From an uncultured Candidatus Saccharibacteria bacterium (lineage in GTDB: Bacteria; Patescibacteriota; Saccharimonadia; UBA4664; CAYXHD01): DNA of 44,317 nucleotides. Where the stretch lies: the NCBI GenBank assembly GCA_964585425.1, contig CAZPDI010000003.1, forward strand, positions 1 to 44,317, read 5' to 3'. Positions 667 to 29,230 of the stretch are shown here, one piece after another. Every line of letters starts with the position of its first letter. Position 1 is the first letter of the stretch. The position numbers and the translations under genes are program-made. The notes below the pieces were generated by a model. It saw only the letters and a program-made list of their open reading frames with translations. It was not told the origin of the DNA and did not search any database.

Positions 667-1396
667 GATAATGACGCATGTAGTTGCTGGCTACCCAGCA
701 GAGGATAGATGCGTAGAACTTATGCTTGGTATGCAAAAAGCTGGTGTTGCTATGATCGAAATCCAAATCCCTTTCTCCGATCCGAGTGCCGATGGTCCAG
801 TTATCATGAGGGCTAACGACATCGCGCTAGAGAATGGTATGAGCATTCAAGGTTGCTTTGATATGATCAGCAATGCTCGCGAGCATGGTCTAAACGTACC
901 AGTCTATGTCATGACCTATGCCAATAAAGTAGTGAGCTTTGGTGCCCGAGAGTTTTGCAAACAAGCGCAAAAACACACTATTGCTGGGTTAATCATTCCT
1001 GACCTTCCTTTCGAAACAACTGACTATATAGAGTTGAGCGCACAGTGCACTCAACTTGGGGTTGATCTAGTGCCGGTCATTTCTCCAGGTATATTGCAAA
1101 ATAGATTGCGTGGCTATGATCTGAGTATTCATAAGTTGGTCTATGTCACCAGTACCCAAGGGATTACTGGCAAAGAGCTCAATATTAAGACTGATCTCCA
1201 AGACCTCATCAAGAACATTCGAACTACAACTGAAGCGCAAATAGCCCTCGGTTTTGGTGTACGAATGCAGGCTGATGTCGAGCAGGCATTACAAATAGCT
1301 GATGTGGCAGTGGTAGGGAGCGCTGTAATCGAAAAAGTCGATCAACTAGGTGTAGATGGTGCCCTACAATTTATTCAGAGTATAATTGAACAGTGA
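656..1396 (+). CDS. trpA: tryptophan synthase alpha chain
   Basis: ATG at 656 is preceded by AGGAGG (644-649) and overlaps the trpB stop (ATGAGCAATAA). TIM-barrel TrpA-like sequence (IEIQIPFSDPSADGPVI, GFGV). The track start at 608 lies inside trpB and lacks an RBS. Confidence 0.85.
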   Translation: MSNKIMTHVVAGYPAEDRCVELMLGMQKAGVAMIEIQIPFSDPSADGPVIMRANDIALENGMSIQGCFDMISNAREHGLNVPVYVMTYANKVVSFGAREFCKQAQKHTIAGLIIPDLPFETTDYIELSAQCTQLGVDLVPVISPGILQNRLRGYDLSIHKLVYVTSTQGITGKELNIKTDLQDLIKNIRTTTEAQIALGFGVRMQADVEQALQIADVAVVGSAVIEKVDQLGVDGALQFIQSIIEQ

Positions 1397-2370: not shown

Positions 2371-3405
2371 TTATAACTTCTCGACCCTGTCGAGCATAAA
2401 CTTAACACCAGTATTAGTATTGATTGCTATAATTTCAATCTCAGGATGCCTAGAGTGGAAAACACGAAAGATTTCATCGGCAAAGGCCTGGCCCACCGTT
2501 GGTACCTTGTCAAAGTCTAAGATAATTCGTTTGAACTTGGTAAAATTAGTTAACACACGACGCGCCTGGGATCGCGATACATAAATGGTACCCATAGTGT
2601 AGAGGCGCACAAGCACCTCAGTTTTATCAAAAGCCGGTTCTTCCGGGTCAATTTGATAGTCACGGAATATATCACTCAAATGCAGCTTAGATTTGGTATT
2701 GATGATAAAGGTTACCTTTGTGCCCCTAACTTCTGACTTTACTTCTTCTACAAAGATATCTGGAAGTGTATTGTCGATCCGTAAACGATAGTTATAGCTT
2801 TCTAGTATAAACAAGTTACCTGCCTTTGACGTAAAGAAAATACCTTCACCGGAGTGTGCCTTTGGAGCCGTAGTTGTTTTGCCTTTTAAGAGGTCTTGTA
2901 TCGCCTCAATTTCTGATGCTAGGCCACGTTTATTCATAATGCTTCTAAATACACCAATACCCGAATCCTTCACAATAAAGGCCAGGTTATCTTTTTCTTG
3001 TTTTATCTCTACTTCAATATTCTTGCTCTCAGAGTGTTCTATGGCGTTATTAAGCATTTCAGAAAATGCATAAGCTAAAATACTCTGAACATTTTCTCGG
3101 AGGCTACTGATAAAACCCTTTTCTCTACGTAGGCTATCGAATACCTCGTATTCTTCCAGGTTAGTATTGCTGAGTCGTTTTTTTATGCGCTTTCCTAGCG
3201 TGTCTGCATATCGTGGCAGGGCATAGACCGACCACCGGCCAGAACTTTCTCTTACTAGTACGCCCCGTTCAACCATAGAGTTGATCACCGTGCTGGCGTA
3301 CGAGCGAGTTACGTCATTATTGAGCGCCTCTAGCACATCAGAGGTTTTGAAATGATGTTTCTTATGAGCTACTTCTAGGATGGTATCTTTTATGGTTGAG
3401 GACAT
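2371..3405 (-). CDS. fusion regulator: N-terminal winged-HTH, GHKL (SpoIIAB/RsbW-like) ATPase, C-terminal STAS-like (DUF4325-like) domain
   Basis: RBS AGGAGAAAG lies upstream. N-box EMLNNAIEHS, G1 box KDSGIGV, G2 box SGEGIFF. The C-terminal part (FDKVPTVGQAFADEIFRVF) resembles the DUF4325/STAS-like family, recalled from memory. Confidence 0.6.
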   Translation of the reverse strand: MSSTIKDTILEVAHKKHHFKTSDVLEALNNDVTRSYASTVINSMVERGVLVRESSGRWSVYALPRYADTLGKRIKKRLSNTNLEEYEVFDSLRREKGFISSLRENVQSILAYAFSEMLNNAIEHSESKNIEVEIKQEKDNLAFIVKDSGIGVFRSIMNKRGLASEIEAIQDLLKGKTTTAPKAHSGEGIFFTSKAGNLFILESYNYRLRIDNTLPDIFVEEVKSEVRGTKVTFIINTKSKLHLSDIFRDYQIDPEEPAFDKTEVLVRLYTMGTIYVSRSQARRVLTNFTKFKRIILDFDKVPTVGQAFADEIFRVFHSRHPEIEIIAINTNTGVKFMLDRVEKL

Positions 3406-6542: not shown

Positions 6543-7073
6543 ATGCATGAATTATTCCAGTCATTCGACACTACGGTTGCTCGTCAGATAGCTAAGCTAC
6601 CGGCTTGGTCGATGCCATTCTTTGCGGTTATTACGTATGCGGGCATTCCAGCTGTAGTGGTGACGGCCTCGCTGGTGCTGAGCATATTGTTGTATGCCCA
6701 AGGTAAAAAGAATGTTTCGGCAGCTTTTGTGCTGGTAGTTGCGGCACTTGGTGCCAATAGCGTGGTCAAGCATCTTATTCATCGGGAGCGACCAGACACC
6801 ATGTATGTGCAGTCCATGGCCATTAGAAGTTATAGCTTTCCTAGCGGCCATGCCTTTGGCAGTATGGTGTTTTATGGCCTGATTGCTTACTTGTGTTATC
6901 GTCATCTGCCGCAGCCATTTGGCGCTCTTGTTCCAGTGTGTTTAGCGATTCTGATTCTTTTGATTGGCCTGTCGCGAGTCTTTTTGGGCGCCCATTTTCC
7001 GTCTGATGTTGTTGTTGGCTGGTTGCTCGGCGGTGTTGCGCTGGCGATCATTATTAAGATCTGTGGCCTGTGA
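6543..7073 (+). CDS. PAP2-family phosphatase (undecaprenyl-diphosphatase/phosphatidate phosphatase-like)
   Basis: The three PAP2 motifs are present: KHLIHRERP, PSGH, SRVFLGAHFPSD. The protein is polytopic. Confidence 0.8.
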   Translation: MHELFQSFDTTVARQIAKLPAWSMPFFAVITYAGIPAVVVTASLVLSILLYAQGKKNVSAAFVLVVAALGANSVVKHLIHRERPDTMYVQSMAIRSYSFPSGHAFGSMVFYGLIAYLCYRHLPQPFGALVPVCLAILILLIGLSRVFLGAHFPSDVVVGWLLGGVALAIIIKICGL

Positions 7074-7939
7074 TGCGCCGCCTAGCCATTGTTCTTAATC
7101 CAAATTCCGGAAGCAGCGAGACATCTGAGCAAGAAATTACCAAGTTATTTAGCATTAAGCGTTTTGAGTTAAAGTTTTTTGATATCACCAAGGGATTGCC
7201 GGTGCTCAAAAAATCCATCAATGCCTACAAAGCCGAAGCAGTGATAGCGGTTGGTGGCGATGGTACCGTTAATGCCGTGGCTACTATTGCTACTCAGCTT
7301 GATTTGCCAATGGGAGTGATTGCTTCGGGCACGCTCAATCATTTTGCCAAGGATATGAATCTGCCGCTCGATCCATCTCAGGCTGCTAAGGTTATTACGC
7401 AGGGCAAGCTAGTGGATATCGATTATGCCACGGTTAACGATCGAGTGTTTGTAAACAACAGCAGTCTTGGTGCCTACCCCGAAGTTGTAATAAAGCGCGA
7501 CAAGCTGTCGATTCTTAATAGTAAGTGGCTTTCGGCCATAGTTGCAGCTTTACAGACCCTGCGCCAACATCGCAAACAACCTTTTGAAGTAGTTATTGAT
7601 GGGAAATCGCGCAAGGTTCGAGCTGGGAGTATATTTGTTGGTAATAATCGTTATACGTTAAAGGGCACAGATTTAAGCTCCCGCCGTAAATTGGATGCTA
7701 GCCTGCTGCAACTTGTGGTAGTTAGGACCGGTCGTTTACGCCATCTGCTCGGTATTATGCTTAGTTTTGCAGTGAAAAAATCTCACGAAAAAGTCACCAT
7801 AACGACTGCTCAGCATATCCAAATTAGATCTACTTGCCAGCGCTATAACGTGGCGATTGATGGGGAAGTGATAGATTTGAAGATGCCTTTAGACTATAAA
7901 ATCCACGCCAAGGCTCTGCGTGTTTTTGGCAAAGAGTAG
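7070..7939 (+). CDS. diacylglycerol-kinase-family lipid kinase (YegS/BmrU-like)
   Basis: ATGA overlap with the PAP2 gene. GGDGTVN nucleotide-binding motif and overall DAGK_cat layout. Confidence 0.8.
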   Translation: MMRRLAIVLNPNSGSSETSEQEITKLFSIKRFELKFFDITKGLPVLKKSINAYKAEAVIAVGGDGTVNAVATIATQLDLPMGVIASGTLNHFAKDMNLPLDPSQAAKVITQGKLVDIDYATVNDRVFVNNSSLGAYPEVVIKRDKLSILNSKWLSAIVAALQTLRQHRKQPFEVVIDGKSRKVRAGSIFVGNNRYTLKGTDLSSRRKLDASLLQLVVVRTGRLRHLLGIMLSFAVKKSHEKVTITTAQHIQIRSTCQRYNVAIDGEVIDLKMPLDYKIHAKALRVFGKE

Positions 7940-7973: not shown

Positions 7974-8738
7974 ATGAGTAAAACAATCACTACCACCAGC
8001 CTTAAAAAATTTAATCTGCGCATGGCTATTTTGCACGCGGTGCAGGCCGTGGCCATCGTCGTATTGAGTAAAAGCTTTAGTCTGCCTATTACCGGGAACT
8101 ACTTACGTTTCGATAACGTTACGCAATCGCTACAACCAGCCTCTACCGAGCTATTTAAGCTATCGCTGCCATTGTTGCTCGTGATCTTTTTTGTGCTGTC
8201 AGCACTGGCTCATCTGATTATCGCCACGATATATAACAAGCGCTATAACACAGATCTTAAAAATGGCATTAACAAGGCGCGCTGGATAGAATATTCGCTT
8301 TCGGCCAGCACCATGATGGTGGCTATTAGTTTGCTCGTCGGCATCTACGACTTGGTAAGTCTGGTAATGATCTTTGCCCTAACGGCCGTCATGAACCTCT
8401 GTGGTCTCGTTATGGAGGTGCATAATCAAACTACCAAAAAGACTAATTGGGTAAGTTATTGGATTGGCTGCTTGGCCGGTATTGTTCCGTGGTTTGCCAT
8501 TGCCTTTTATATGTGGCTGGGTGCCGATAAGGGGAGCGCTGCGCCAACCTTTGTATATTGGATCTTTGTTTCGATCTTTGTATTCTTTAACTGCTTTGCC
8601 ATTAATATGGTGTTGCAGTACAAGAAAATCGGGCCATGGAAGGATTACCTGTATGGCGAACGCGCCTACATTATCTTGAGCTTAGTTGCTAAGTCGCTGC
8701 TCGCCTGGCAGGTATTTGCCGGCACATTGCGTCCATAA
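7974..8738 (+). CDS. heliorhodopsin (7-TM, retinal-binding Lys conserved)
   Basis: Strong resemblance to heliorhodopsin 48C12 as I remember it: RWIEYSLSAS (counter-ion Glu), GCLAGIVPW, GERAYIILSLVAKSLLAWQVFAGTL (Schiff-base Lys). Confidence 0.85.
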   Translation: MSKTITTTSLKKFNLRMAILHAVQAVAIVVLSKSFSLPITGNYLRFDNVTQSLQPASTELFKLSLPLLLVIFFVLSALAHLIIATIYNKRYNTDLKNGINKARWIEYSLSASTMMVAISLLVGIYDLVSLVMIFALTAVMNLCGLVMEVHNQTTKKTNWVSYWIGCLAGIVPWFAIAFYMWLGADKGSAAPTFVYWIFVSIFVFFNCFAINMVLQYKKIGPWKDYLYGERAYIILSLVAKSLLAWQVFAGTLRP

Positions 8739-15346: not shown

Positions 15347-18064
15347 ATGGCGACAATTACCGCTAACACAGGATCAAACAACTGGAACACTAATGCCGCC
15401 TGGGTTGGAGGTTCTCAGCCCACGGCTGCCGACGATGTTGTTATTCCGGCTTCGGCGGTCGTTACTATACCCTCTGCAACCAGCGTAGTGGGTAGGTCTT
15501 TGACCGTACAAGCTAGCGGGACATTAGCTTTTGCAGCAACAACCTCTACGTTATCTCTTGGTAATGCCACCGCAGGAGCTGGTAATGTGGCCCTGTCTAT
15601 TAGTGCGAGCGCCACAATTACCTTAACGGCAATAGGTACAATAAACTTAGTATCCACGTCCACCACACAGCAAACCATTGATGCCGGTGGTAAAACATTG
15701 CCAAACATTACGGTAAACGGCGCCGGTTCAAGCTATATATTGTCTAGCGCACTTACTTCATCAGGTAACTTAGTGCTCAACGCAGGTACGTTTAATACCA
15801 ATAATTTGGCGATGACCCTTGCGACTCTGTCCGTCGGTGCCAGCGGTGTAAGAACGATGACACTGGGCTCTTCGGCTATTACCTTAACAGGTTCATCTAG
15901 TGTTTTTTCATTTGGTAACCTAACTAACCTAACATTTACCGCCAATACTGCCGTACTGACGATAACCGCGGCGGTTGTTAGTTTTAATAACATTGTTGTG
16001 ATGAATAGCTTTAATTGGAACGGATTATCGCTCGTCATTACTGCGGCGCAGGCCGCCACAGTAAATATATCTGGAGCAACCATCCGCAATTTAACCATTA
16101 CCGGGACTGCCATAAAAACCACTGAGTTTCGTTTTAATGGTAGTTTTACCATCACCGACACATTATCTGTAGTGGGCAATTCATCTGTTAATAGAGTGTT
16201 ATTGTCCACGACTACCAGAGGTACGGCAGCTGCACTAACTACTACAACGCTCGGTACGATGTCCAATGTAGACTTAATGGATATTACTGCGGCAGGTGCT
16301 TCTTCCCCCTGGAATCTAGCCTCTATTACAGGCCTATCGGGGGATTGCGGTGGCAATTCTAATATTACCTTTACGGCTCCAGTCGCTCAGACTATCTCGG
16401 TCGCAGGATCGTGGGACGATTCAAGTAAATGGACATCACGTGTCCCGCTTCCGCAAGATGATGTTACGGTTAGTGGCTCATCTGCCATCACCCTTAACAT
16501 GCCTCGTTTTGGTAAAAGCATAAACATGTCCGGTTATACAGGCACCATGACCCTTACGAGTTCCACAGGAACATGCGAATTTTATGGCAGCATGACCCTC
16601 GGTTCTGGTATGAGCTGGGGAACATCTCCGACCACATTTAACATATCGGCTGGTGGACGTAGTTCGTACACGATAGCCTCTAATGGTAAAGACTTTTTTC
16701 CGGCAAGCACCACGGCATCTTTTGCCATCTCTGCTCCAAACGGAACATATACGCTTACGGATGCCCTCAAAACTAAAAGTCCCACATCGGGGTCATTTAA
16801 CATAAGTGCCGGATCATTTAATAGTGCTAATTACTCGATTGATACAGGTTTATTTTGGTCGCAGAGCACCACAACTCGGGCGGTAAGCTTGGGAACGTCA
16901 GTCGTAACATTATATGCCGTAGGTGGGTCTACTATTGTGTCATTTGCTGGTGCCGGAATTACCGGCAGTATGGAAAATGCTACTTTTACGGTCCTCAGTG
17001 CAAGTGCTAGTACTCGAACCGTAAATACTAACGATGTGACAATAGGCACCTTTACCTATACGGTGGCCGGATCGACGGGACCACTCTCCATAAGTGGCAA
17101 TAGTTCGTTTAACACGCTTAACTTTTCGGATGCTACTAATGCTCGAACATTGCAGATATCGGCGGGTATACGCCTTGCCGTAAACAGTAACTTTAACGTA
17201 TTTGGTACTTCGGGTAAGTTGGTAACGTTAAAGTCGGCAACGGGCGGATCAAAGGCATATGTTAGTAAACCGTATGGCGGACCAATAGCTGGCGTAGATT
17301 ACCTTTCGATACAAGACATACATGGTTATGAGGCGCTCAACTTTTATGTGGGTGCGAACTGTATTGATGTATCTGGCAATGCCAATATTTATTTTAATAC
17401 CACAACGACGTATAAGCATCGTCAAAGTACGATGAACATGACAGCCTCATTGGCCACCTCAGCTTCGGCTACATTCCCGACCTCTACCACAGCTGGCAAT
17501 TTACTGGTGGCCTTTGTGAATAGTGCTAATGCAACTGGTGGAGGCGTAACATTTACGTCAGGCTGGACACAAGCGGTAATATCAACAAGTGCCGGGTCGG
17601 CTTATCTCTATTATAAAAAAGCTGACGGTACAGAGACATCGGTAACACATACCCAAACAAGTGCCCGAATTATAACTATTGGCTTATTTGAATACCAGGG
17701 CTTTACCGGTGACCCAACGCTTGATGTGACAAGTAGTAATATAAGTACAGCAAGCGTATCAGCGCTCTCCACCACCTCTACTACGGGGCCTACAAACGTA
17801 AGTCAGCCAGCATTGGCATTAGCTTTTGTTGGGGGAACATCCAACCTGGCACAATGGGTGTCTGCTACTAATAGCTTTTTACCCGATTACACAACGGGTG
17901 TGCCAAGCACTGGTTACTTGCATGCCGTTGTCAAGGAGCTCACCACATCGGCAGCCGTAGAAACAACGATTGGCTGGACAACGGCTCGAGCTAATGTGTA
18001 TACCGGCCTGGCCGTGTTCAAAAATGTGATTACGAGCAACGGCAACTTCTTGCAATTTTTTTAA
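15347..18064 (+). CDS. large Thr/Ser/Asn/Ala-rich beta-helix/fibre-like protein (905 aa), no signal peptide
   Basis: The start abuts the upstream stop (TAAATG). The N-terminus reads NWNTNAAWVGGSQPTAADDVVIP, followed by a long repetitive beta-strand-like sequence and a non-repetitive C-terminal stretch of about 200 aa. Confidence 0.55.
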   Translation: MATITANTGSNNWNTNAAWVGGSQPTAADDVVIPASAVVTIPSATSVVGRSLTVQASGTLAFAATTSTLSLGNATAGAGNVALSISASATITLTAIGTINLVSTSTTQQTIDAGGKTLPNITVNGAGSSYILSSALTSSGNLVLNAGTFNTNNLAMTLATLSVGASGVRTMTLGSSAITLTGSSSVFSFGNLTNLTFTANTAVLTITAAVVSFNNIVVMNSFNWNGLSLVITAAQAATVNISGATIRNLTITGTAIKTTEFRFNGSFTITDTLSVVGNSSVNRVLLSTTTRGTAAALTTTTLGTMSNVDLMDITAAGASSPWNLASITGLSGDCGGNSNITFTAPVAQTISVAGSWDDSSKWTSRVPLPQDDVTVSGSSAITLNMPRFGKSINMSGYTGTMTLTSSTGTCEFYGSMTLGSGMSWGTSPTTFNISAGGRSSYTIASNGKDFFPASTTASFAISAPNGTYTLTDALKTKSPTSGSFNISAGSFNSANYSIDTGLFWSQSTTTRAVSLGTSVVTLYAVGGSTIVSFAGAGITGSMENATFTVLSASASTRTVNTNDVTIGTFTYTVAGSTGPLSISGNSSFNTLNFSDATNARTLQISAGIRLAVNSNFNVFGTSGKLVTLKSATGGSKAYVSKPYGGPIAGVDYLSIQDIHGYEALNFYVGANCIDVSGNANIYFNTTTTYKHRQSTMNMTASLATSASATFPTSTTAGNLLVAFVNSANATGGGVTFTSGWTQAVISTSAGSAYLYYKKADGTETSVTHTQTSARIITIGLFEYQGFTGDPTLDVTSSNISTASVSALSTTSTTGPTNVSQPALALAFVGGTSNLAQWVSATNSFLPDYTTGVPSTGYLHAVVKELTTSAAVETTIGWTTARANVYTGLAVFKNVITSNGNFLQFF

Positions 18065-18755: not shown

Positions 18756-19292
18756 ATGAAGAAGCTTACCCTTATTATTGGCTTGGCACTGCTGAGCGCC
18801 GGCCTTTACTTGATGCTGATTATTGTATTGCCCTATATTCCGGCGCAAAAAAATCCTACAGAAAAGCAAAAAAGTGAACTTTCGGTCGACAGTGTTACCG
18901 TCCCTTCGGTGGGCATTTACGCGCCAATTATCCAGGGTAATGCCGATGCCCTAAACCAAGGGGCTTGGCATCGGTTCCCAGAGCGAGGTAATCCGGTTAA
19001 GGGCGGCACCTTTATTCTTTCGGCACATAGCTTTGTATTTCGTCTTAATCCACTCCAGAGTCGTCAAGACTCTTATTTCTTTAATCTTCATAAGGCAAAA
19101 GTAGGGGACAAGATACATGTTGTATGGGATAAAAAAGAGTATACCTACACGGTAAGTAAGCTTTACGAGGTGCAGCCAAATGCCGTGGAGATAGAAGAGG
19201 TGAATGGTACAGATCATCTGGTGATGTACACCTGTACACCAGGAGGCAGTGCCGATGGGCGAGTCGTGATCGAGGCCCTACCGGACTTTTAG
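18756..19292 (+). CDS. sortase-family transpeptidase (probably class E-like, LAxTG-specific)
   Basis: N-terminal TM anchor, catalytic His (ILSAHSF), TLxTC-type motif LVMYTCTP, and Arg (GRVVIEA). The LASTG substrates at 5001..6518 and 44075..44287 suggest the specificity. Confidence 0.8.
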   Translation: MKKLTLIIGLALLSAGLYLMLIIVLPYIPAQKNPTEKQKSELSVDSVTVPSVGIYAPIIQGNADALNQGAWHRFPERGNPVKGGTFILSAHSFVFRLNPLQSRQDSYFFNLHKAKVGDKIHVVWDKKEYTYTVSKLYEVQPNAVEIEEVNGTDHLVMYTCTPGGSADGRVVIEALPDF

Positions 19293-21670: not shown

Positions 21671-22627
21671 CTAATGGGCATTGCGTAAATCTAGAACCTT
21701 TGGATGGGGCTTATTGCTAAGTTTGGACGGGCCAATAAGCACCCGTCTTGTGGTTTTTTTTATGACGGGCGCAGGTGCAGTCGCCCTAGCAGCACGTACT
21801 AGCTGTTCGGGTTCCGGTTCTGGTTGCGGCGCCGGCGCACTGGCTGGCTCGATGTTTGCCTGATCAGCTTCGCGCAGCGCTTCTATAAGCATGGCGATTC
21901 GTACCTCTCGTTTTTGGGCTCGAGTCATACGATGATTCCAGCGCACCATTATAACCGAGAGCTCAAAGAGCAGAACAATTGGCAGGGCGATTACAAACTG
22001 CGTGACCGGATCATAGGTGAATGGCATAATTAGCGCCACAATCAGGCTACCCACAATAACGTGTCGACGATATTTGGTTAGTTGCCGGGGCTTGAGCGGA
22101 TGGATGCGATCGATAATAGAGATAATCAGTGGCAGTTGAAAGAGCAGGGCAAAGGTTGCCAGGATGCCTAATACAAAGTTGAGGTAGGAATCTGCAGATA
22201 TGAGGGGTCGAACGGCCTGACCACCAAACTCACTAAAGAACGTTAAGCTGGTTGGCAGAATCGCCAGGTAGGCAAAAACGATTCCAATAGCCGCCAACAC
22301 AAACGACCAAATCAGGGTTCGGCGCATCAATTTGCTTGTTAGTCGTTTGCCAACAGCCGGTTCTACAAAGTGCAAGAGCTGATGTACAATGACTGGCACG
22401 GCAGCGATAAAGCCAGCCGTCATAATCACGCGCATAAAAAATTCAAATCCACCTTGCGGCGTACTGTAGTACACCGATTGACCAAGGGGATTAAGTATGA
22501 GCTTGGTGAGTGGTTCACGCACGGCATACCCAACGCCACACCATACAATAAAGACAGCAACCACGCGCATCAGTCGCGATCGCAACTCATGAATATGTTC
22601 TCGCAAAGATGCTTCTTTTTTACTCAC
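21671..22627 (-). CDS. tatC: twin-arginine translocase subunit TatC
   Basis: N-terminal EHIHELRSRL motif and six TM helices. The extended Pro/Ala-rich C-terminal tail is unusual. Confidence 0.85.
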   Translation of the reverse strand: MSKKEASLREHIHELRSRLMRVVAVFIVWCGVGYAVREPLTKLILNPLGQSVYYSTPQGGFEFFMRVIMTAGFIAAVPVIVHQLLHFVEPAVGKRLTSKLMRRTLIWSFVLAAIGIVFAYLAILPTSLTFFSEFGGQAVRPLISADSYLNFVLGILATFALLFQLPLIISIIDRIHPLKPRQLTKYRRHVIVGSLIVALIMPFTYDPVTQFVIALPIVLLFELSVIMVRWNHRMTRAQKREVRIAMLIEALREADQANIEPASAPAPQPEPEPEQLVRAARATAPAPVIKKTTRRVLIGPSKLSNKPHPKVLDLRNAH

Positions 22628-23283: not shown

Positions 23284-23400
23284 ATGAATCAACTATTACA
23301 AGACGTCCTCACCAACCCAACCGCGCGTAGCCAAGAACAAATGGCTGTATCGGCAGCAACAGCCACCGAAAAGTATTTACCGTGGAGCGACGAGGCATAA
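23284..23400 (+). CDS. candidate 38-aa peptide ORF with Trp near the C-terminus (ComX-like precursor?)
   Basis: My translation is MNQLLQDVLTNPTARSQEQMAVSAATATEKYLPWSDEA. GAAAGGG lies 4 nt upstream. The ORF ends 19 nt before the HK start. It is short, so coding status is unproven. Confidence 0.3.
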   Translation: MNQLLQDVLTNPTARSQEQMAVSAATATEKYLPWSDEA

Positions 23401-23419: not shown

Positions 23420-24856
23420 ATGACGCGGCGCTCAAGACTATACAATTTACTGTTACGACCTCGATCCAGCCATCCCGATAAGCAACGACGAGAGTATATT
23501 TTTACTATTCTCATCGGCCTCTTTACGACCAGTGCGGCAATAACGCTACTATCTTCTGTGCTGAATCATATTGCCGGCAACAGTCCGCATAATACCAACT
23601 CCATCCCAATCACGGCTGGTTTCTTGGTTATTACAGCTGGGTTGTGGTGGCTGGCGCGTAAAGGGCACTATGAATTTGGCGCCTATGTCTTGAGCGCCTT
23701 AGTCTGGATGGCGAGTCTGCAGTTAATGCTGACGTGGAGTTTTGAGCTGCCCATGTCGCAACTAGTTAATGTCCTTGTGATTGCCGTGGTGGGTGTGGTG
23801 CTCAGCTCTACTGCTGCCGCGATCTTTACTCTGCTCGTCGTGGCCACAACCCTGAGCGTTGGCTATTTGCAGGTTCAGGGTGTGCTGGTTGCTAATACGC
23901 AATGGATGACGCAGCCGCTGGAGTTTTCCGACGCCGTAGGCCAGGCCGTAATATACATCATTATTGGTGGTATTTTATGGCTAGCAAATCGCGAAATCGA
24001 TAATTTGCTGCGCCGAGCCTGGCGGTCCGAGGCGGCATTGGCAAAAGAGCGTGATGAGTTAGAGGTAACGGTGGCTCGTCGAACCCGTGAGTTAGAGCAA
24101 GAGCAAATGGCCCGTGTTTTGGAATTGCAACAGTTTGCTGAGTTTGGACGAGTCAGCGCTAGCTTGCTTCATGATTTAGCAAATCCACTGACTGCGGCAG
24201 TGTTGCACCTGGAGGAAGAAGGCGAACGGCGCAGATCAAAACTCGTTAATCAGGCCATGCGTAGCATCGGTCATATTGAGCGCTATATTCTGGCGGCTCG
24301 TAAGCAATTGCAAGGTAGCTCCGAACCGCAGGTCTTTGTGGCCGAGGACGAAATAGTCGAAGTCATCGAGCTTGTACGCAACCAGGCCATAAAAGCGGGG
24401 CTTGCGATTCAGTTTAAGCCACCCAAGGTTCATCGCTTGCATGGTGATCTCGTTGCCTTTCATCGCGTAGTAGCAAATTTGCTGGTCAATGCAATTCAGG
24501 CCTACAGTGCCAAGCCTGGTCGCAAGCAGCCAATTGTTGTCACGACTTGGGATGATAATGCGGTTTTGTACATTAGCATTAAAGATCACGGTAGCGGCAT
24601 CGCCCAAACCGATTTACCGCATATATTCGAAGAGTTTTACACCACTAAAAAGCGTCTTGGCACAGGCCTGGGCCTTGGTTTGGCAAGCGCCAAACAAGTG
24701 ATCGAACAAAATTTTGGCGGTAGCATTACGGCCACGAGCTCACCCACTACTGGAACAATCTTTACGTTAGGAATACCACTTCATGAATCAACACATCGAA
24801 CAATCTCTGCAACGCGCCCAAAACTTTCTGGTTCGCGCTCAAAATCCAAACGGTAG
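23420..24856 (+). CDS. polytopic sensor histidine kinase
   Basis: AGGAAGAG RBS. About 6 TM helices, a coiled-coil linker, H-box SASLLHDLANPL, N-box LLVNAIQAY, G1 box KDHGSGI, G2 box GTGLGLGLA. Confidence 0.85.
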   Translation: MTRRSRLYNLLLRPRSSHPDKQRREYIFTILIGLFTTSAAITLLSSVLNHIAGNSPHNTNSIPITAGFLVITAGLWWLARKGHYEFGAYVLSALVWMASLQLMLTWSFELPMSQLVNVLVIAVVGVVLSSTAAAIFTLLVVATTLSVGYLQVQGVLVANTQWMTQPLEFSDAVGQAVIYIIIGGILWLANREIDNLLRRAWRSEAALAKERDELEVTVARRTRELEQEQMARVLELQQFAEFGRVSASLLHDLANPLTAAVLHLEEEGERRRSKLVNQAMRSIGHIERYILAARKQLQGSSEPQVFVAEDEIVEVIELVRNQAIKAGLAIQFKPPKVHRLHGDLVAFHRVVANLLVNAIQAYSAKPGRKQPIVVTTWDDNAVLYISIKDHGSGIAQTDLPHIFEEFYTTKKRLGTGLGLGLASAKQVIEQNFGGSITATSSPTTGTIFTLGIPLHESTHRTISATRPKLSGSRSKSKR

Positions 24857-26558
24857 TTTTACGGGTCGGTCTGATGATCGTCCGACAGACACCGTTTTCT
24901 TTACAGCACTTATTTTGGATTGTCTCAACACTGCGCAAGCAAATAGTGCTGCCCGGCAAAAAGCTGCAGATTATTTGCTGCGCCATAAAAGCCGCCAATG
25001 GAGCTGGAACTACTGGGAGCGAGGCAGCACCTCTAGATCCTATCCAGACGACTTAGATGATTCGGCCTGCGCCATAGCCAGCATAGTTGGGGTCAATCCC
25101 GAATTGGTAGATGTCGATGCCCAGGCAGCTATTGCTAAGAATCTTATTCAATGCGAGACCAAGCCTGGTGGTCCATACGTCACGTGGTTGGTGCGCTCGG
25201 CAGACACGCGCTGGCAAGATGTTGATCCGGCGGTCAACGCCAATATTGGCTATATGTTATCGCGACTCGGAGTCCAGACACTAGCCTTGCAGGAGTACAT
25301 CGAAACATGTCTAAAAAATCGTACTTTGCAATCGCCATACTATGTTGGCGGAGTACCAGCGTTGTACTTTATCGCTCGCTGGTATAAAGGATCAGCGCTA
25401 CCATTGTTGCGTTCCTATATTGCCATAGAATTAAGTAAATCAGGCTTGTCGACGCTGCAGCGAGCCATGCTTATTACCGCTGGATTAAACGCTGGTTGTC
25501 GCTCGGATTTGCTGCAGAGACACGTAGAGTACTTAGTGCAGGAGCAACATGACGATCATTGGGCATCCGCACCATTGTATTATGAGCCGCCCGAAGGCGG
25601 GAAGCAGCGCTATGCAGGCTCGGCCGAGCTGACTACTGCGTTTGTGGTAGAGGCTTTGCAGGTATTTGGGCATCGGCAGGCATCTGTGGTGTCGTTAGCG
25701 TCAGAGAACCCAACATCGCCTAAGTCGGTATACAAACAACTCTTGATACGCCAGACAAGCTCAGAGGTCATCGATATCGCCAGCACTATTGCGCGCGCCG
25801 GCGGCTGGAGGTTGAACGAGGTAGCCTTGCGTCATCTCAATCGGGGGAGTCGTAATGGCTGGTTGGCATACAGCATTTATGATGATGTACTAGATGGCGA
25901 TGGTGAGGTCTTGCACCTTTCTGTTGCCAATATGGCCTTGCGTCGTTCATTACTGCACTTTACTAAGGCTATTCCAGATACTCGCTTTCATTCTTTTATC
26001 GCCAAGGTGTTTGATGAGGTAGATGCGGCCAATGCTTGGGAGCTTACTCACGCTCGAGATGCAAATCAGTTACCACGATACGGTGCCTACAAGATGTTGG
26101 CGCAACGATCTTGGGGCCATGTTATAGCTCCCACCGGTGTAATGGTTTTAGCCGGTTACGCACTTGACAGCCCCGAAGTTGCGCAGCTGCATACCTTTTT
26201 TCGCCAGTACATTATCGCCAAACAGCTCTGTGATGATGCTCATGACTGGTTACCCGATTTGCGTGCCGAGCATATAACTCCTATCGTGGCCTTGTTGCTT
26301 AGAGAGCTGCCGCAGGCGGATGAGGTATCTCATCAATTGCATTTTTGGCGACATACTATTGATGAGGTTAATAGCTTAATTCGTGAGCATCTCGCTCGAG
26401 CCGAACAAACGTTGCGCGAATGCAGATTTATTGTGCATAAAGATGAAATACTCCAATGGCTAACTGCCCTTGAACGCAGTTGCGCTCGGGCTGAGCAGGC
26501 CAGAGAGGAGGCACGCCAGTTTATTACGGCCTTTAGTGCCAGGAGTCTGGTAGACTAG
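24783..26558 (+). CDS. two-domain terpenoid enzyme: N-terminal squalene-cyclase/prenyltransferase-type alpha-alpha toroid with DxDD motif, fused to a C-terminal polyprenyl-synthase-like domain with two DDxxD motifs
   Basis: DDLDDSA at aa 89-95 (25047..25067). QW-like repeats (NPNGSF, QWSWNYWE, KPGGPYVTW). DDVLD at aa 367-371 (25881..25895). DDAHD at aa 484-488 (26232..26246). The start overlaps the HK 3' end by 74 nt. Confidence 0.6.
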   Translation: MNQHIEQSLQRAQNFLVRAQNPNGSFTGRSDDRPTDTVFFTALILDCLNTAQANSAARQKAADYLLRHKSRQWSWNYWERGSTSRSYPDDLDDSACAIASIVGVNPELVDVDAQAAIAKNLIQCETKPGGPYVTWLVRSADTRWQDVDPAVNANIGYMLSRLGVQTLALQEYIETCLKNRTLQSPYYVGGVPALYFIARWYKGSALPLLRSYIAIELSKSGLSTLQRAMLITAGLNAGCRSDLLQRHVEYLVQEQHDDHWASAPLYYEPPEGGKQRYAGSAELTTAFVVEALQVFGHRQASVVSLASENPTSPKSVYKQLLIRQTSSEVIDIASTIARAGGWRLNEVALRHLNRGSRNGWLAYSIYDDVLDGDGEVLHLSVANMALRRSLLHFTKAIPDTRFHSFIAKVFDEVDAANAWELTHARDANQLPRYGAYKMLAQRSWGHVIAPTGVMVLAGYALDSPEVAQLHTFFRQYIIAKQLCDDAHDWLPDLRAEHITPIVALLLRELPQADEVSHQLHFWRHTIDEVNSLIREHLARAEQTLRECRFIVHKDEILQWLTALERSCARAEQAREEARQFITAFSARSLVD

Positions 26559-28540: not shown

Positions 28541-29230
28541 TTATAACGGTTTCGCAGTAGAGGATACCACCGTATAGCCAACCCCGTGCACGGTTTTTAT
28601 GCTATGTGCGCCAAATGGTCGATCCACTTTATCGCGCAGATATTTTATATGCACATCAACGGTGTTATTCCACGTACTTTCGCTACTATCCCAGCCATTA
28701 TTGACCAGTTGTTCACGGCTCAGCACGGTGTAAGGGCTCAACATCAATTGCTCCAAAATAATATATTCCTTATTGCGTAACGGTATTTCTTTGCCTTGAC
28801 GGAAGGCAGAGTGTCGATCCAGGTCGAGCATCAAATCGCCTACAGTTATTTGGCGTGTCGGAGGCTGACGCAGCGCTTGGCGACGCAATAGGGCACGTAT
28901 CCTGGCAACTACTTCTTTTTTACGAAACGGTTTGGTTATGTAGTCGTCGGCGCCAGCCTCTAATAACTCAACCATAACAGTTGGTCGATCTTCGGCCGTA
29001 ATAACTAAAATGGGCATATTTTGGTCATTGCTGCGCAGTGCGCGGCACACTTCTAGACCGTGCATGTCGGGCAAGTGTAGATCTAATATAACAAGATTAA
29101 AATCGTTTTCTTCGGCGAGCTCCAGGGCTCGTTCGCCGCTGCAAGCAACCTCGACCACGTAATAGCCGCCAACCATCGTACGTAAACCGTCGGCTAGTTC
29201 TTGGTCGTCTTCAACGATCAATATCTTCAT
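28541..29230 (-). CDS. OmpR/PhoB-family response regulator
   Basis: Receiver domain (DD...D52-type LVILDLHLPDM, K in ITKPF) plus a winged-helix trans_reg_C domain (VDVHIKYLRDKV, IKTVHGVGY). Confidence 0.9.
   Translation of the reverse strand: MKILIVEDDQELADGLRTMVGGYYVVEVACSGERALELAEENDFNLVILDLHLPDMHGLEVCRALRSNDQNMPILVITAEDRPTVMVELLEAGADDYITKPFRKKEVVARIRALLRRQALRQPPTRQITVGDLMLDLDRHSAFRQGKEIPLRNKEYIILEQLMLSPYTVLSREQLVNNGWDSSESTWNNTVDVHIKYLRDKVDRPFGAHSIKTVHGVGYTVVSSTAKPL

What the first reader, a model, noticed from the sequence alone, without database searches (positions are those of the whole stretch)
24783..26558. One polypeptide combining a class II terpene-cyclase DxDD motif with class I/prenyl-synthase DDxxD motifs
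Seen in sequence: DDLDDSA (aa 89-95) sits where squalene-hopene and class II diterpene cyclases have D(V/I)DDTA. It is embedded in QW-like repeats (NPNGSFTG, QWSWNYWE, KPGGPYVTW). The C-terminal ~260 aa have AYSIYDDVLDGD and QLCDDAHDW.

Established knowledge: DxDD is the protonation-initiating motif of class II cyclases, and DDxxD binds Mg-diphosphate in class I synthases and prenyl synthases. Bifunctional fusions are known mainly from plants and fungi, and bacterial class II enzymes normally have two toroid domains.

Inference: a single ~320-aa toroid fused to a prenyl-synthase-like domain is an unusual architecture, particularly in what looks like a reduced genome with no isoprenoid pathway genes in this window.
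Basis: partly seen in the sequence, partly recalled or inferred. Interest (0 to 1): 0.7.

Follow-up and report, generated by a model that had tools for sequence, protein, structure and literature searches.

The report
Peptide prenyl-cyclase in signalling operon
This gene encodes a two-domain enzyme (a terpene cyclase fused to a prenyltransferase) that, across thousands of ultrasmall CPR bacteria, sits beside a tiny tryptophan-containing peptide gene and a membrane sensor kinase, so it probably makes a terpene-decorated peptide signal, which would be a Bacillus-ComX-like communication system in bacteria where none is known.

Summary
ORF 24783..26558(+) encodes 591 aa with DDLDDSA (aa 89-95) and two DDxxD strings, all invariant or nearly so in 76 homologues.

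Profile and structure evidence give two domains:
- **N-terminal:** a single-barrel class II terpene cyclase β domain. The closest solved relative is drimenol synthase AsDMS (E=1.2e-19). The catalytic D331/D333/Y427 are conserved as D90/D92/Y187.
- **C-terminal:** a trans-prenyl-diphosphate-synthase fold (TM 0.70-0.73 to GGPPS/HexPPS). It has FARM and SARM but lacks the IPP-binding basic residues.

Context changes the reading. In ~80 loci from CPR/Patescibacteria the gene is translationally coupled to an upstream 6-TM histidine kinase. That kinase is preceded by a ~38-aa ORF (window 23284..23400) with a conserved leader (LTDxxxR) and one conserved Trp ("PW") 1-8 residues from the C-terminus. 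An OmpR-type regulator usually comes first, and in about a third of loci a genuine polyprenyl synthase follows.

This is the parts list of ComQXPA and PalPXQ, plus a cyclase domain as in the fused prenyltransferase-cyclase RiPP maturases ChrPC/NctPC (2024). The best reading is Trp prenylation of the peptide followed by class II cyclisation of the prenyl chain, with the product sensed by the kinase. This is inferred, not shown. I class it as a new variant of a known kind. The family is large (≥1,200 clusters at 50% identity) and unannotated.

The parts
23284..23400 (+). Small ORF 'X' (38 aa, MNQLLQDVLTNPTARSQEQMAVSAATATEKYLPWSDEA): putative precursor peptide with leader motif (V/I)LT(D/N)xxxR and a single Trp in 'PW', 4 residues from the C-terminus
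Evidence: The alignment is essentially gapless; among the 67 first-pass matches 62 have one Trp and 55 have PW. Background for the pattern in same-size ORFs is about 1.5%. A Shine-Dalgarno-like AAAGGG lies 5 nt upstream.
23420..24856 (+). Histidine kinase (478 aa): six predicted TM helices with very short loops, then an H-box (HDLANPL) and HATPase_c; putative receptor
   Evidence: Pfam HATPase_c 1.6e-23 and HATPase_c_5. TM prediction. An orthologous kinase lies immediately upstream on the same strand in 83 of 87 loci. Its 3' end overlaps the enzyme gene by 74 nt here and by 1-41 nt or abuts it elsewhere.
24783..25697 (+). Enzyme N-terminal domain (aa 1-305): single (alpha/alpha)6-barrel class II terpene cyclase beta domain
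   Evidence: Family profile vs PDB: AsDMS beta domain E=1.2e-19, AstC 8.8e-6. Foldseek: AsDMS 1.1e-9, rmsd 3.3 over 318 columns. AF2 pLDDT 94.6. Pfam PF28380 AstC-like_C gives a weak hit on some members.
25050..25061 (+). DxDD motif D90-L-D92-D93 (general-acid motif of class II cyclases)
   Evidence: D90 76/76, D92 75/76, D93 69/76. D90/D92 align with AsDMS D331/D333, both essential by mutagenesis. The Tyr H-bond partner Y427 corresponds to Y187 (75/76).
25698..26558 (+). Enzyme C-terminal domain (aa 306-591): trans-isoprenyl-diphosphate-synthase fold, putative Trp prenyltransferase ('P' domain)
   Evidence: AF2 of the domain alone: pLDDT 94.7, pTM 0.91. Foldseek: HexPPS 3aqb_B 1.4e-4 (TM 0.70), human GGPPS 6r4v TM 0.71-0.73 with rmsd 3.5-3.6, indole prenyltransferase Ord1 1.5e-3, class I cyclase TmS only TM 0.46. 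No significant sequence hit to Pfam, NCBIfam or PDB.
25881..25895 (+). First Asp-rich motif (FARM) D367-D368-V-L-D371 at the C-terminal end of helix 346-370
   Evidence: D367 and D371 invariant, D368 93%. Helix positions.
26223..26258 (+). Second Asp-rich region Q481-L-C-D484-D485-A-H487-D488-W489-L-P-D492 (SARM with the preceding Gln)
   Evidence: Q481, D484, D488, W489 and D492 invariant. hhalign places it on FQxxDD...D(I/L)xxGK of the neighbouring genuine polyprenyl synthases. A Gln just upstream of SARM plus the first SARM Asp is the proposed indole-NH recognition element of Trp prenyltransferases (PMC13290415).
28541..29230 (-). OmpR-type response regulator, probable partner of the kinase (displaced and inverted in this lineage)
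   Evidence: Pfam Response_reg + Trans_reg_C. Orthologues lie directly upstream of X and the kinase in most loci (75 of 87 loci within 5.5 kb). The syntenic locus L007 has the same displaced arrangement.

Best explanation
The gene encodes a bifunctional peptide maturase with a class II terpene cyclase (N-terminal, beta domain) and a ComQ-like, trans-IPPS-fold prenyltransferase (C-terminal).

Proposed mechanism:
1. The P domain binds an allylic prenyl diphosphate (probably C15-C20, from a polyprenyl synthase that is often encoded next door) through FARM/Mg2+, R387 and the R/K442-S443 pair. It ionises the diphosphate and alkylates the indole of the single conserved Trp near the C-terminus of the ~38-aa peptide encoded two genes upstream.
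2. The cyclase domain protonates the distal double bond of the attached chain with D92 (assisted by D90 and Y187) and folds it into a polycyclic terpene.
3. After release, the lipidated peptide is sensed in the membrane by the co-transcribed six-TM histidine kinase, which signals through the OmpR-type regulator. This would be a ComQXPA-like autoinducer circuit in CPR bacteria.

Shown here: the domain identities, conservation of catalytic residues, loss of the IPP site, and near-universal gene linkage.

Inferred: the acceptor (Trp of X), the order of the two reactions, the chain length, export and cleavage of the peptide, and the ligand-receptor relation.
For: Domains:
- N domain to AsDMS beta domain: E=1.2e-19, Foldseek 1e-9.
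- Catalytic D331/D333/Y427 = D90/D92/Y187. Aromatic pocket F281/F318/Y319/F328 = F39/Y77/W78/Y87, conserved.
- The four AsDMS diphosphate-binding arginines map to W144/D146/P185/variable. This fits a non-diphosphate (peptide-borne) substrate.
- C domain has the trans-IPPS fold with invariant FARM, SARM and the Gln before SARM.
- The P domain lacks the GKxxR and post-SARM Lys residues that the neighbouring genuine synthases conserve.

Context:
- Kinase immediately upstream in 83 of 87 loci, regulator in 75 of 87, polyprenyl_synt in 27 of 87 (22 directly downstream). No other conserved partner.
- X peptide present in 78-79 of 80 loci, with an invariant-position Trp.
- In L016, which lacks the kinase, X is still directly upstream of the enzyme.

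Precedents:
- ComQ/ComX/ComP/ComA.
- PalP (kinase)-PalX-PalQ (PMC10853753).
- StheQ/StheX.
- ChrPC and NctPC, which prenylate Trp and then cyclise the prenyl group (PMC13290415).
- 'All characterised trans-IDS-like PTs target tryptophan'.
Against: - There is no biochemical evidence.
- The P domain has no detectable sequence similarity to ComQ, PalQ or Pfam polyprenyl_synt. hhalign to IPPS is weak (probability 10.6%).
- Its fold is closer to canonical GGPPS (TM ~0.7) than to the one solved indole prenyltransferase, Ord1 (TM ~0.5).
- It has a full DDxxD SARM, whereas ComQ and StheQ have a pseudo-SARM (NDxxx).
- No exporter or leader peptidase is conserved in the neighbourhood.
- The acidic cluster E125/D146/D148 in the cyclase domain could bind a diphosphate through Mg2+, as in Streptomyces drimenyl-PP synthase. 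That would allow a free prenyl-PP substrate.
- The regulator is OmpR-type, not the NarL-type ComA. The kinase is not an orthologue of ComP.
Confidence: 0.55

Rival explanations
1. It is a free-terpenoid synthase. The beta domain cyclises FPP or GGPP to a bicyclic diphosphate (drimenyl- or copalyl-type). The C domain then ionises or removes the diphosphate, acting like a class I enzyme, to give a cyclic terpene or alcohol. That product serves as a membrane lipid or lipid signal sensed by the adjacent kinase. The small ORF is unrelated or only regulatory.
For: The closest solved relative, AsDMS, does class II cyclisation followed by diphosphate removal by a fused second domain. Both Asp-rich motifs are intact. 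A polyprenyl synthase is often adjacent. One family member gives a weak Terpene_syn_C_2 hit. The six-TM kinase could sense a lipid.
Against: The C domain resembles prenyltransferases, not class I cyclases (TM 0.70-0.73 vs 0.46). Its second motif aligns with SARM, not with an NSE/DTE triad. The diphosphate-binding arginines of AsDMS are not conserved in the beta domain. A drimenyl-type diphosphate is not allylic and so is a poor substrate for ionisation (established chemistry). This rival leaves unexplained the near-universal small ORF with a position-invariant Trp, which stays next to the enzyme even without the kinase.
Confidence: 0.2
2. The enzyme prenylates and cyclises, but on a different acceptor: free tryptophan or indole (like Ord1), a lipid or quinone-like head group (like MstE substrates), or another protein. 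The small peptide is a non-substrate modulator of the kinase, in the manner of small membrane-protein regulators such as MgrB.
For: Ord1, an all-alpha IPPS-fold enzyme, farnesylates free Trp and appears among the structural hits. In Microgenomates and Parcubacteria the peptide's middle segment is hydrophobic and signal-peptide- or TM-like. No leader peptidase or exporter is linked.
Against: The only position conserved in the variable C-terminal part of X is the Trp (with Pro before it), which is the residue every characterised trans-IDS-like PT modifies. In L016, X is adjacent to the enzyme and the kinase is absent, which argues against a purely kinase-directed role.
Confidence: 0.17
3. It is a chain-elongating prenyltransferase fused to a class II cyclase, like the fungal copalyl diphosphate synthase PvCPS. 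The C domain would make GGPP from IPP and DMAPP, and the beta domain would cyclise it.
For: The best structural matches are GGPP, hexaprenyl and solanesyl diphosphate synthases and the PvCPS prenyltransferase domain. FARM and SARM are both present.
Against: The IPP-binding GKxxR motif and the Lys residues after SARM are invariant in the neighbouring genuine synthases but absent here. Pfam polyprenyl_synt does not match any of 76 members. A separate genuine polyprenyl synthase is encoded immediately downstream in many loci, which would make this domain redundant.
Confidence: 0.05
4. It is a non-catalytic accessory or scaffold protein of the kinase that has merely kept an enzyme-like fold.
For: Tight translational coupling to the kinase.
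Against: Every canonical catalytic residue of both domains is invariant or nearly so across sequences only 26-67% identical to the window protein. That is the signature of retained catalysis.
Confidence: 0.03

Closest known systems
ChrPC (and NctPC): fused prenyltransferase-cyclase RiPP maturases (Hubrich et al. 2024, Chem 10:3224; known to me only through review PMC13290415)
   Same: [quoted passage not shown] ChrPC's P domain is trans-IDS-like, as here. It targets an internal Trp of a ribosomal peptide with C10-C20 donors and then cyclises the prenyl group.
   Different: No sequence relatives outside CPR were found, so this is a separate sequence family. Here the cyclase is N-terminal and the prenyltransferase C-terminal; ChrPC's domain order could not be checked. 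The precursor is a ~38-aa stand-alone peptide rather than a proteusin, Nif11 or lasso precursor (those precursor types are from my memory of the abstract). The gene is locked to a two-component system, so signalling rather than antibiotic function is implied. NctPC uses an ABBA-fold PT, which is not the case here.
[quoted passage not shown]
   Same: The same four parts are adjacent on one strand: an IPPS-superfamily enzyme with FARM, a short pre-peptide whose only conserved core residue is a Trp a few residues from the C-terminus, a polytopic membrane histidine kinase, and a response regulator.
   Different: An extra class II cyclase domain is present. Gene order is RR-X-HK-enzyme rather than Q-X-P-A. 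The regulator is OmpR-type, not NarL-type. The kinase has 6 TM helices and is not a ComP orthologue. There is a full DDxxD SARM rather than the pseudo-SARM NDxxx. No sequence similarity to ComQ is detectable. The phylum is CPR, whereas the census reported Firmicutes only (PMC4008528, as cited).
PalP-PalX-PalQ of Paenibacillus alvei and StheQ/StheX of Sphaerobacter
   Same: A histidine kinase, a Trp-terminated precursor and a trans-IDS-like Trp prenyltransferase form a small conserved cluster. StheQ shows that ComQ-type enzymes exist outside Firmicutes next to a short Trp peptide.
   Different: PalX has an NHLP leader and needs a strictly C-terminal Trp. There is no cyclase domain. There is no sequence similarity to this family.
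HAD-TCbeta drimenol/drimenyl synthases (AsDMS, AstC)
   Same: These are the closest solved relatives of the N domain: a single beta barrel, a DxD(D/T)T acid motif, a Tyr partner and an aromatic pocket, fused to a second domain that processes the diphosphate end.
   Different: The partner domain is a HAD phosphatase at the N-terminus, not an IPPS-fold domain at the C-terminus. The AsDMS diphosphate-binding arginines are not conserved here. AsDMS acts on free FPP.
PvCPS and fusicoccadiene-synthase-type prenyltransferase-cyclase fusions
   Same: An IPPS-fold domain is fused to a terpene cyclase. The PvCPS prenyltransferase domain is among the structural hits.
   Different: Those IPPS domains are true chain-elongating synthases with IPP sites. 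Their cyclases are beta-gamma or alpha domains. They are fungal and make free terpenes.

Membership tests
Class II terpene cyclase, monodomain (TC-beta; AstC/AsDMS/MstE type) | (alpha/alpha)6 barrel homologous to the SHC/CPS beta domain | tested here: met
   Profile hit to the AsDMS beta domain E=1.2e-19, AstC 8.8e-6, SHC 1e-4 to 1e-2. Foldseek 1e-9 to AsDMS, 3e-8 to 8paj, 1e-5 to SHC. 12 helices in aa 1-305.
Class II terpene cyclase, monodomain (TC-beta; AstC/AsDMS/MstE type) | DxDD/DxDTT general-acid motif at the catalytic position, with its Tyr hydrogen-bond partner | tested here: met
   D90-L-D92-D93-(T/S)94 aligns without gaps to AsDMS D331-L-D333-T-T. Y187 aligns with Y427. All are at least 91% conserved.
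Class II terpene cyclase, monodomain (TC-beta; AstC/AsDMS/MstE type) | Protonation-initiated polyene cyclisation activity | not testable with these tools
   Needs an enzyme assay.
HAD-TCbeta drimenol synthase (AsDMS) subfamily | N-terminal HAD phosphatase domain and Arg/Tyr diphosphate-binding set (R378, R380, R425, R513, Y373, Y426) | tested here: not met
   There is no HAD domain; the partner is an IPPS-fold domain. R378/R380/R425/R513 map to W144/D146/P185/variable; only Y426 (= Y186) is kept.
trans-Isoprenyl diphosphate synthase superfamily (fold level) | All-alpha IPPS fold with FARM and SARM on the two facing helices | tested here: met
   Foldseek TM 0.70-0.73 and rmsd 3.5-4.5 to GGPPS/HexPPS. 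DDxxD at the end of helix 346-370 and DDxxD at the end of helix 464-487. SARM region aligned by hhalign.
Chain-elongating trans-IPPS (Pfam PF00348 polyprenyl_synt) | Sequence membership plus IPP-binding basic residues (GKxxR, RRG, KT, post-SARM GK...K) | tested here: not met
   No PF00348 hit in any of 76 members. The conserved basic residues are only R387, R425, R/K442 and K/R480. GKxxR and the post-SARM lysines, invariant in the neighbouring synthases, are missing.
Class I terpene cyclase (alpha domain) | DDxxD plus NSE/DTE triad, with class I cyclase-like helical arrangement | tested here: not met
   The best class I match, T-muurolol synthase, has TM 0.46 and ranks 46th. The second motif aligns to SARM. 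The spacing D484/D488/D492 (i, i+4, i+8) superficially mimics a metal triad, so a class I-like ionisation cannot be fully excluded.
ComQ-type / trans-IDS-like tryptophan prenyltransferase | IPPS fold with FARM, loss of the IPP site, and a Gln just upstream of (pseudo-)SARM | tested here: met
   See above. Q481 and D484 are invariant. The criterion is from PMC13290415. Caveat: canonical IPPS also have FQxxDD, so the Gln does not discriminate on its own.
ComQ-type / trans-IDS-like tryptophan prenyltransferase | Adjacent short precursor peptide with a conserved Trp near the C-terminus | tested here: met
   The X ORF is present in 78-79 of 80 loci. Among the 67 first-pass matches, 62 have one Trp, 55 have PW, and 1-7 residues follow the Trp.
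ComQ-type / trans-IDS-like tryptophan prenyltransferase | Sequence membership in IPR033965/ComQ or the PalQ/ChrPC clusters | tested here: inconclusive
   No ComQ-like model was hit in Pfam or NCBIfam.
ComQ-type / trans-IDS-like tryptophan prenyltransferase | Demonstrated Trp prenylation | not testable with these tools
   Needs co-expression and mass spectrometry.
ComQXPA-type quorum-sensing locus | Enzyme, pre-peptide, membrane histidine kinase and response regulator adjacent on the same strand | tested here: met
   RR-X-HK-enzyme is on one strand in most of 87 loci. In the window the regulator is displaced to 28541..29230(-).
ComQXPA-type quorum-sensing locus | Orthology of the kinase and regulator to ComP and ComA (NarL/LuxR type) | tested here: not met
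   The regulator has Trans_reg_C (OmpR type). The kinase shows only HATPase_c and 6 TM helices.

The most novel reading that the evidence does not exclude
CPR/Patescibacteria, which have minimal genomes, an episymbiotic lifestyle and no known cell-cell signalling chemistry, broadly encode a dedicated autoinducer circuit. Its signal would be a ribosomal peptide carrying a polycyclic terpene on tryptophan. A lineage-specific cyclase-prenyltransferase fusion would make it, and a six-TM histidine kinase would read it. This would be the first quorum- or kin-sensing system of the radiation and a new clade of terpene-cyclised RiPP pheromones.
Probability: 0.4. Interest if true: 0.9.

Novelty: new variant of a known kind. 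Interest (0 to 1): 0.77.

Why it matters
If the reading is right, a very large protein family gets a concrete and testable function. The family has at least 1,872 clusters at 50% identity, occurs in at least 393 species-level genomes, and is almost entirely annotated 'hypothetical'.

For CPR biology, it would supply the first candidate peptide-pheromone or kin-recognition circuit in organisms whose regulation and host interaction are largely unknown. It comes with obvious genetic handles: X, the kinase, the enzyme and the regulator.

For natural-product enzymology, it adds a compact and highly conserved cyclase-prenyltransferase scaffold. This scaffold is unrelated in sequence to ChrPC/NctPC, has an AsDMS-like beta domain, and acts on a very short precursor. 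That makes it attractive for peptide lipidation and terpene cyclisation biocatalysis.

It would also extend ComX-type Trp prenylation, long thought to be Bacillus-specific, to a deep bacterial radiation.

Tried and rejected
- **Direct Pfam and NCBIfam scans of the protein.** Only sub-threshold squalene-cyclase hits on aa 3-89 and nothing for the C half. Scanning all 76 members gave scattered weak hits only.
- **Sequence profile of the C domain against PDB.** No meaningful hit; the top hits were coiled-coil-like noise. Only structure prediction and Foldseek resolved it.
- **hhalign of the C-domain profile against 21 neighbouring polyprenyl synthases.** Low probability (10.6%). I used it only for motif register, not as proof of homology.
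- **Class I cyclase reading of DDxxD...DDxxDxxxD.** Considered because D484/D488/D492 have NSE/DTE-like spacing. Rejected as the main reading on structural ranking.
- **Chain-elongating synthase reading.** Rejected on the missing IPP-site residues and the presence of a separate genuine synthase.
- **Search for non-CPR relatives with the C-domain profile.** None found in the 5.8-billion-protein set; all named hits are Patescibacteria. The exhaustive HMMER run lists only the top 150, all of the same architecture, so any distant tail (1,872 vs 1,238 hits) could not be inspected.
- **Promoter and terminator scan around the module.** Fewer sites than in shuffles, so uninformative.
- **Unbiased clustering of neighbouring ORFs for an exporter or protease.** None is conserved.
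- **Reading the primary ChrPC/NctPC paper (PMC11484575 and its DOI).** Not held, so the comparison relies on the 2026 review.
- **Literature searches for ComQXPA with CPR, and for Patescibacteria with terpene or RiPP.** No description of this module was found.

Full report
**1. The observation**

The ORF at 24783..26558(+) is real: 591 aa with an ATG start. Chance gives one DxDD plus at least two DDxxD in 0.24% of shuffles of this protein.

The more telling fact is conservation. A search of about 5.8 billion proteins returned 91 homologues. Nearly all are 580-670 aa and unannotated, and those with names are from Candidatus Saccharibacteria or Saccharimonadales.

In a 76-sequence alignment (26-67% identity to the window protein), the conserved positions are:
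- Invariant: D90, E125, G130-P131-Y132, N152, G359, W360, Y363, D367, D371, R387, E420, S443, Q481, D484, D488, W489, D492.
- At least 90% conserved: D92 (75/76), D93, T94, D368, D485, H487, Y186, Y187.

Both halves are therefore under strong constraint exactly at the Asp motifs.

**2. What the two halves are**

Library HMMs alone fail. Pfam and NCBIfam give only sub-threshold squalene-cyclase matches on aa 3-89.

A profile built from the family hits the beta (class II cyclase) domain of the bacterial drimenol synthase AsDMS at E=1.2e-19 over profile positions 28-307. It also hits fungal AstC at 8.8e-6 and squalene-hopene cyclases weakly. AlphaFold2 with the family alignment gives a very confident model (pLDDT 94.6, pTM 0.88) with 12 helices in aa 1-305, followed by an all-helical domain.

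Foldseek against the PDB matches the first half to:
- AsDMS (E=1.1e-9, rmsd 3.3 Å over 318 columns);
- a 342-residue Archangium cyclase;
- SHC and Streptomyces drimenyl-diphosphate synthase.

I used the gapless HMM alignment and the AsDMS mutagenesis paper (PMC12365925) to map residues. The chain index plus 10 gives the paper's numbering; this was verified because the D333N crystal sequence reads DDLN.
- The essential D331/D333/Y427 correspond to D90/D92/Y187.
- The pocket aromatics F281/F318/Y319/F328 correspond to F39/Y77/W78/Y87, all conserved.
- The four arginines that hold the FPP diphosphate in AsDMS (R378, R380, R425, R513) correspond to W144, D146, P185 and a variable position.

So the N domain is a bona fide, probably active, single-barrel class II cyclase. 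Its head-group site differs from that of the free-FPP enzyme.

The C half has no significant sequence match to Pfam, NCBIfam or PDB, even as a profile. Modelled alone (pLDDT 94.7, pTM 0.91), its structural neighbours are uniformly trans-prenyl diphosphate synthases:
- hexaprenyl-PP synthase 3aqb_B, E=1.4e-4, TM 0.70;
- human GGPPS 6r4v, TM 0.71-0.73, rmsd 3.5-3.6 Å;
- solanesyl-PP and heptaprenyl-PP synthases;
- the prenyltransferase domain of fungal PvCPS;
- the all-alpha indole prenyltransferase Ord1.

The first class I cyclase appears only at rank 46 with TM 0.46.

D367-D368-x-x-D371 closes helix 346-370 as FARM does. Q481-x-x-D484-D485-x-x-D488 closes helix 464-487 as SARM does. A profile-profile alignment with 21 genuine polyprenyl synthases from neighbouring genes is weak (probability 10.6%). 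It does put RQLNDDAHDW...DLxxG on FQxxDD...D(I/L)xEGK, and it shows that the Lys-bearing loop after SARM is deleted.

Those genuine synthases conserve K57/R60 (GKxxR), R106, K209 (KT) and K265/K275. The family keeps only R387, R425, R/K442-S443 (KT-like) and K/R480. So the allylic-diphosphate and Mg2+ machinery is retained while the IPP site is gone. This domain ionises a prenyl diphosphate but does not elongate it.

**3. The context that changes the interpretation**

Six homologues looked up on their contigs showed the same neighbourhood:
- an OmpR-type response regulator;
- a called ORF of 34-41 aa;
- a ~460-aa histidine kinase whose stop overlaps or abuts the enzyme's start;
- the enzyme;
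- in two cases, a Pfam polyprenyl_synt gene immediately downstream.

The 80 best are CPR/Patescibacteria MAGs: Saccharibacteria, Levyi-, Shapiro-, Roizman- and Daviesbacteria, Moraniibacteriota, Colwellbacteria, Paceibacterota and Doudnabacteria. Some bins are evidently mislabelled.

Across 87 loci, unbiased clustering of all neighbouring ORFs recovers only these recurrent partners:
- the kinase in 83 loci, at median position -8 nt from the enzyme start;
- the regulator in 75 loci;
- polyprenyl_synt in 27 loci, 22 of them directly downstream on the same strand.

Everything else is antisense shadow ORFs or lineage-specific genes.

The small ORF is present in 78 of the 80 loci with enough upstream DNA. 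Features of this ORF:
- The peptides align essentially without gaps as M-x2-(L/I/V)-x4-L-T-D-x3-R-x~19-P-W-x1-8.
- Of the 67 first-pass matches, 62 have exactly one Trp, 55 have Pro before it, and 1-7 residues follow it.
- Only about 1.5% of other ORFs of this size in the same loci fit the pattern.
- The window's copy is 23284..23400(+), MNQLLQDVLTNPTARSQEQMAVSAATATEKYLPWSDEA. It lies 19 nt upstream of the kinase (23420..24856), which overlaps the enzyme gene by 74 nt.
- In L016, the one locus lacking the kinase, the peptide ORF sits directly upstream of the enzyme. This ties the peptide to the enzyme rather than to the kinase.

The kinase has six predicted TM helices joined by very short loops, then an H-box and HATPase_c (also a HATPase_c_5 match, which Pfam describes only as a GHKL domain). 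It is therefore a membrane-embedded sensor.

In the window the regulator is displaced to 28541..29230(-), as in the syntenic locus L007.

**4. Mechanism proposed**

The parts are an IPPS-fold enzyme, a short peptide with a conserved sub-terminal Trp, a polytopic histidine kinase and a response regulator. These are the parts of the Bacillus ComQXPA pheromone system, in which ComQ geranylates or farnesylates the Trp of ComX. They also match the PalP-PalX-PalQ cluster of Paenibacillus (PMC10853753). ComQ-type enzymes have the trans-IPPS fold and occur outside Firmicutes next to a short Trp peptide (StheQ/StheX preprint).

According to a 2026 review, every characterised trans-IDS-like peptide prenyltransferase targets tryptophan. 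A Gln just before SARM, together with the first SARM Asp, is proposed to recognise the indole N-H (PMC13290415). Q481 and D484 are invariant here.

The same review reports two fused prenyltransferase-cyclase maturases, both from Hubrich et al. 2024:
- NctPC (ABBA-fold PT);
- ChrPC (trans-IDS-like PT), in which the P domain prenylates a peptide Trp with C10-C20 donors and the C domain, resembling the monodomain class II cyclase MstE, then cyclises the prenyl group.

I therefore propose three steps:
1. The C-terminal domain transfers a C15-C20 prenyl group to the 'PW' Trp of X.
2. The N-terminal domain, with D92 as the acid, cyclises the chain.
3. The lipopeptide is the ligand of the co-transcribed kinase.

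The loss of the AsDMS diphosphate-binding arginines fits a substrate whose head group is a peptide. The adjacent polyprenyl synthases fit a donor-supply role. The Saccharibacterial type has Phe at position -5 before a DDxxD FARM. From general knowledge of chain-length determination, this suggests a short product (C15-C20).

Shown here: fold assignments, residue conservation, loss of the IPP site, and gene linkage. Inferred: acceptor identity, order of reactions, chain length, export and cleavage, and the receptor-ligand relation.

**5. Rivals**

- **(a) A free-terpenoid synthase** in which the second domain removes or ionises the diphosphate, by analogy with AsDMS. This is not excluded, because the acidic cluster E125/D146/D148 could bind a diphosphate through Mg2+. 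It does not explain the Trp peptide, and the C domain is not class I-like.
- **(b) Prenylation and cyclisation of another acceptor**, with X acting as a kinase modulator. The signal-peptide-like middle of X in Microgenomates and Parcubacteria and the lack of any linked exporter or protease keep this open.
- **(c) A PvCPS-like GGPP synthase-cyclase.** This is contradicted by the missing IPP site and the separate synthase.
- **(d) A non-catalytic scaffold.** This is contradicted by the invariant catalytic residues.

**6. Comparison and novelty**

The architecture is not unprecedented. Monodomain class II cyclases (AstC, AsDMS, MstE) and prenyltransferase-cyclase RiPP maturases are known.

What appears new:
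- It is a distinct sequence family. No non-CPR relative was found, and there is no Pfam/NCBIfam model.
- It is very large: 1,872 clusters at 50% identity at E ≤ 1e-3 and 1,238 at E ≤ 1e-30. All 150 listed hits place the P domain at the C-terminal end of the protein; most are ~630-660 aa, with the domain at residues ~320-650.
- It is confined to CPR.
- Its cyclase is AsDMS-like and N-terminal.
- Its precursor is very short.
- It is nearly always wired to a two-component system.

I found no paper linking ComQXPA-type systems, or this enzyme, to CPR. I could not read Hubrich et al. 2024, so I cannot exclude that their genome mining touched this clade.

The window has none, but CPR lineages carry mevalonate-pathway and IDI genes (PMC6107057), and many homologous loci carry a polyprenyl synthase.

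**7. Verdict**

| Item | Verdict |
|---|---|
| Observation | Confirmed |
| Novelty | New variant of a known kind |
| Interest | High, because of the breadth of the family, the organisms involved and the direct testability |

Noticed in passing
window 7974..8738 (+): A full-length heliorhodopsin gene (Pfam PF18761, E=2.5e-100). It is followed by a cupin and an SDR, and preceded by a PAP2 phosphatase (6543..7073) and a DAG-kinase-like gene (7070..7939). No retinal or carotenoid biosynthesis gene is in the window.
   Followed up: no
L020, L022, L024, L025, L039, L044, L049, L050, L053, L062, L063, L066, L069, L070, L076 (X ORFs, about 5.3-5.6 kb in each locus): In Microgenomates and Parcubacteria-type loci the precursor peptide looks like a Sec signal peptide: a Lys/Arg-rich N-terminus, a hydrophobic core and small residues just before (N/S)PW. 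In Saccharibacteria, including the window, the same segment is polar or acidic. The release mechanism may therefore differ between lineages.
   Followed up: partly
L016 5691..8890: This variant locus has no histidine kinase. An alpha/beta-hydrolase (DUF1749/Hydrolase_4) is followed by the X ORF (6864..6971) and then the enzyme. The hydrolase might be a leader peptidase or esterase candidate.
   Followed up: partly
L001 3105..4505 and L002 5337..6712: Diversity-generating-retroelement genes (RVT_1 reverse transcriptase plus bAvd accessory protein) lie 4-6 kb upstream of the module in two unrelated CPR genomes. This is probably coincidental.
   Followed up: no
L005 9993..11090, L006 4305..5369, L010, L013, L015, L018, L021 versus L036, L041, L046, L047, L072-L074, L078: The polyprenyl synthases next to the module are of two types. 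The first has HDDxxDRDxxRWGG, with an unusual Trp in place of the second Arg of RRG and Phe at position -5 before FARM. The second has the canonical HDDxxDxxxxRRG with Ala at -5. These may supply different chain lengths.
   Followed up: partly
window 24783..24856: The kinase and enzyme genes overlap by 74 nt in different frames. In other loci the overlap is 1-41 nt or the genes abut, so translational coupling is likely. The last ~24 residues of the window kinase are a basic, Ser/Lys/Arg-rich tail.
   Followed up: partly
window 15347..18064 (+) and 18756..19292 (+): A 905-aa protein with only a weak G8-domain match lies next to a DUF308 membrane protein and a sortase, probably a surface protein and its anchoring enzyme. 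TatC (21671..22627, -) and three unannotated ORFs lie between these and the module. The arrangement is syntenic with L007.
   Followed up: no
window 2371..3405 (-): A 344-aa protein combines an N-terminal winged-helix-like region, a GHKL ATPase (HATPase_c / HATPase_c_2) and a C-terminal STAS-like DUF4325. This is an unusual stand-alone architecture of unknown role.
   Followed up: no
record titles of L015, L023, L030, L036-L038, L045, L065, L070, L083, L086: Several MAGs carrying this CPR-specific module are labelled Gammaproteobacteria, Verrucomicrobiia, Dormiibacterota or Sulfotelmatobacter in their records. This probably reflects mis-binning or mislabelling rather than real occurrence outside CPR.
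   Followed up: no
window 49..1396 (+): Tryptophan synthase beta (partial, cut by the window edge) and alpha genes are present, although CPR genomes are usually poor in biosynthetic genes. There is no evident link to the Trp-peptide module.
   Followed up: no
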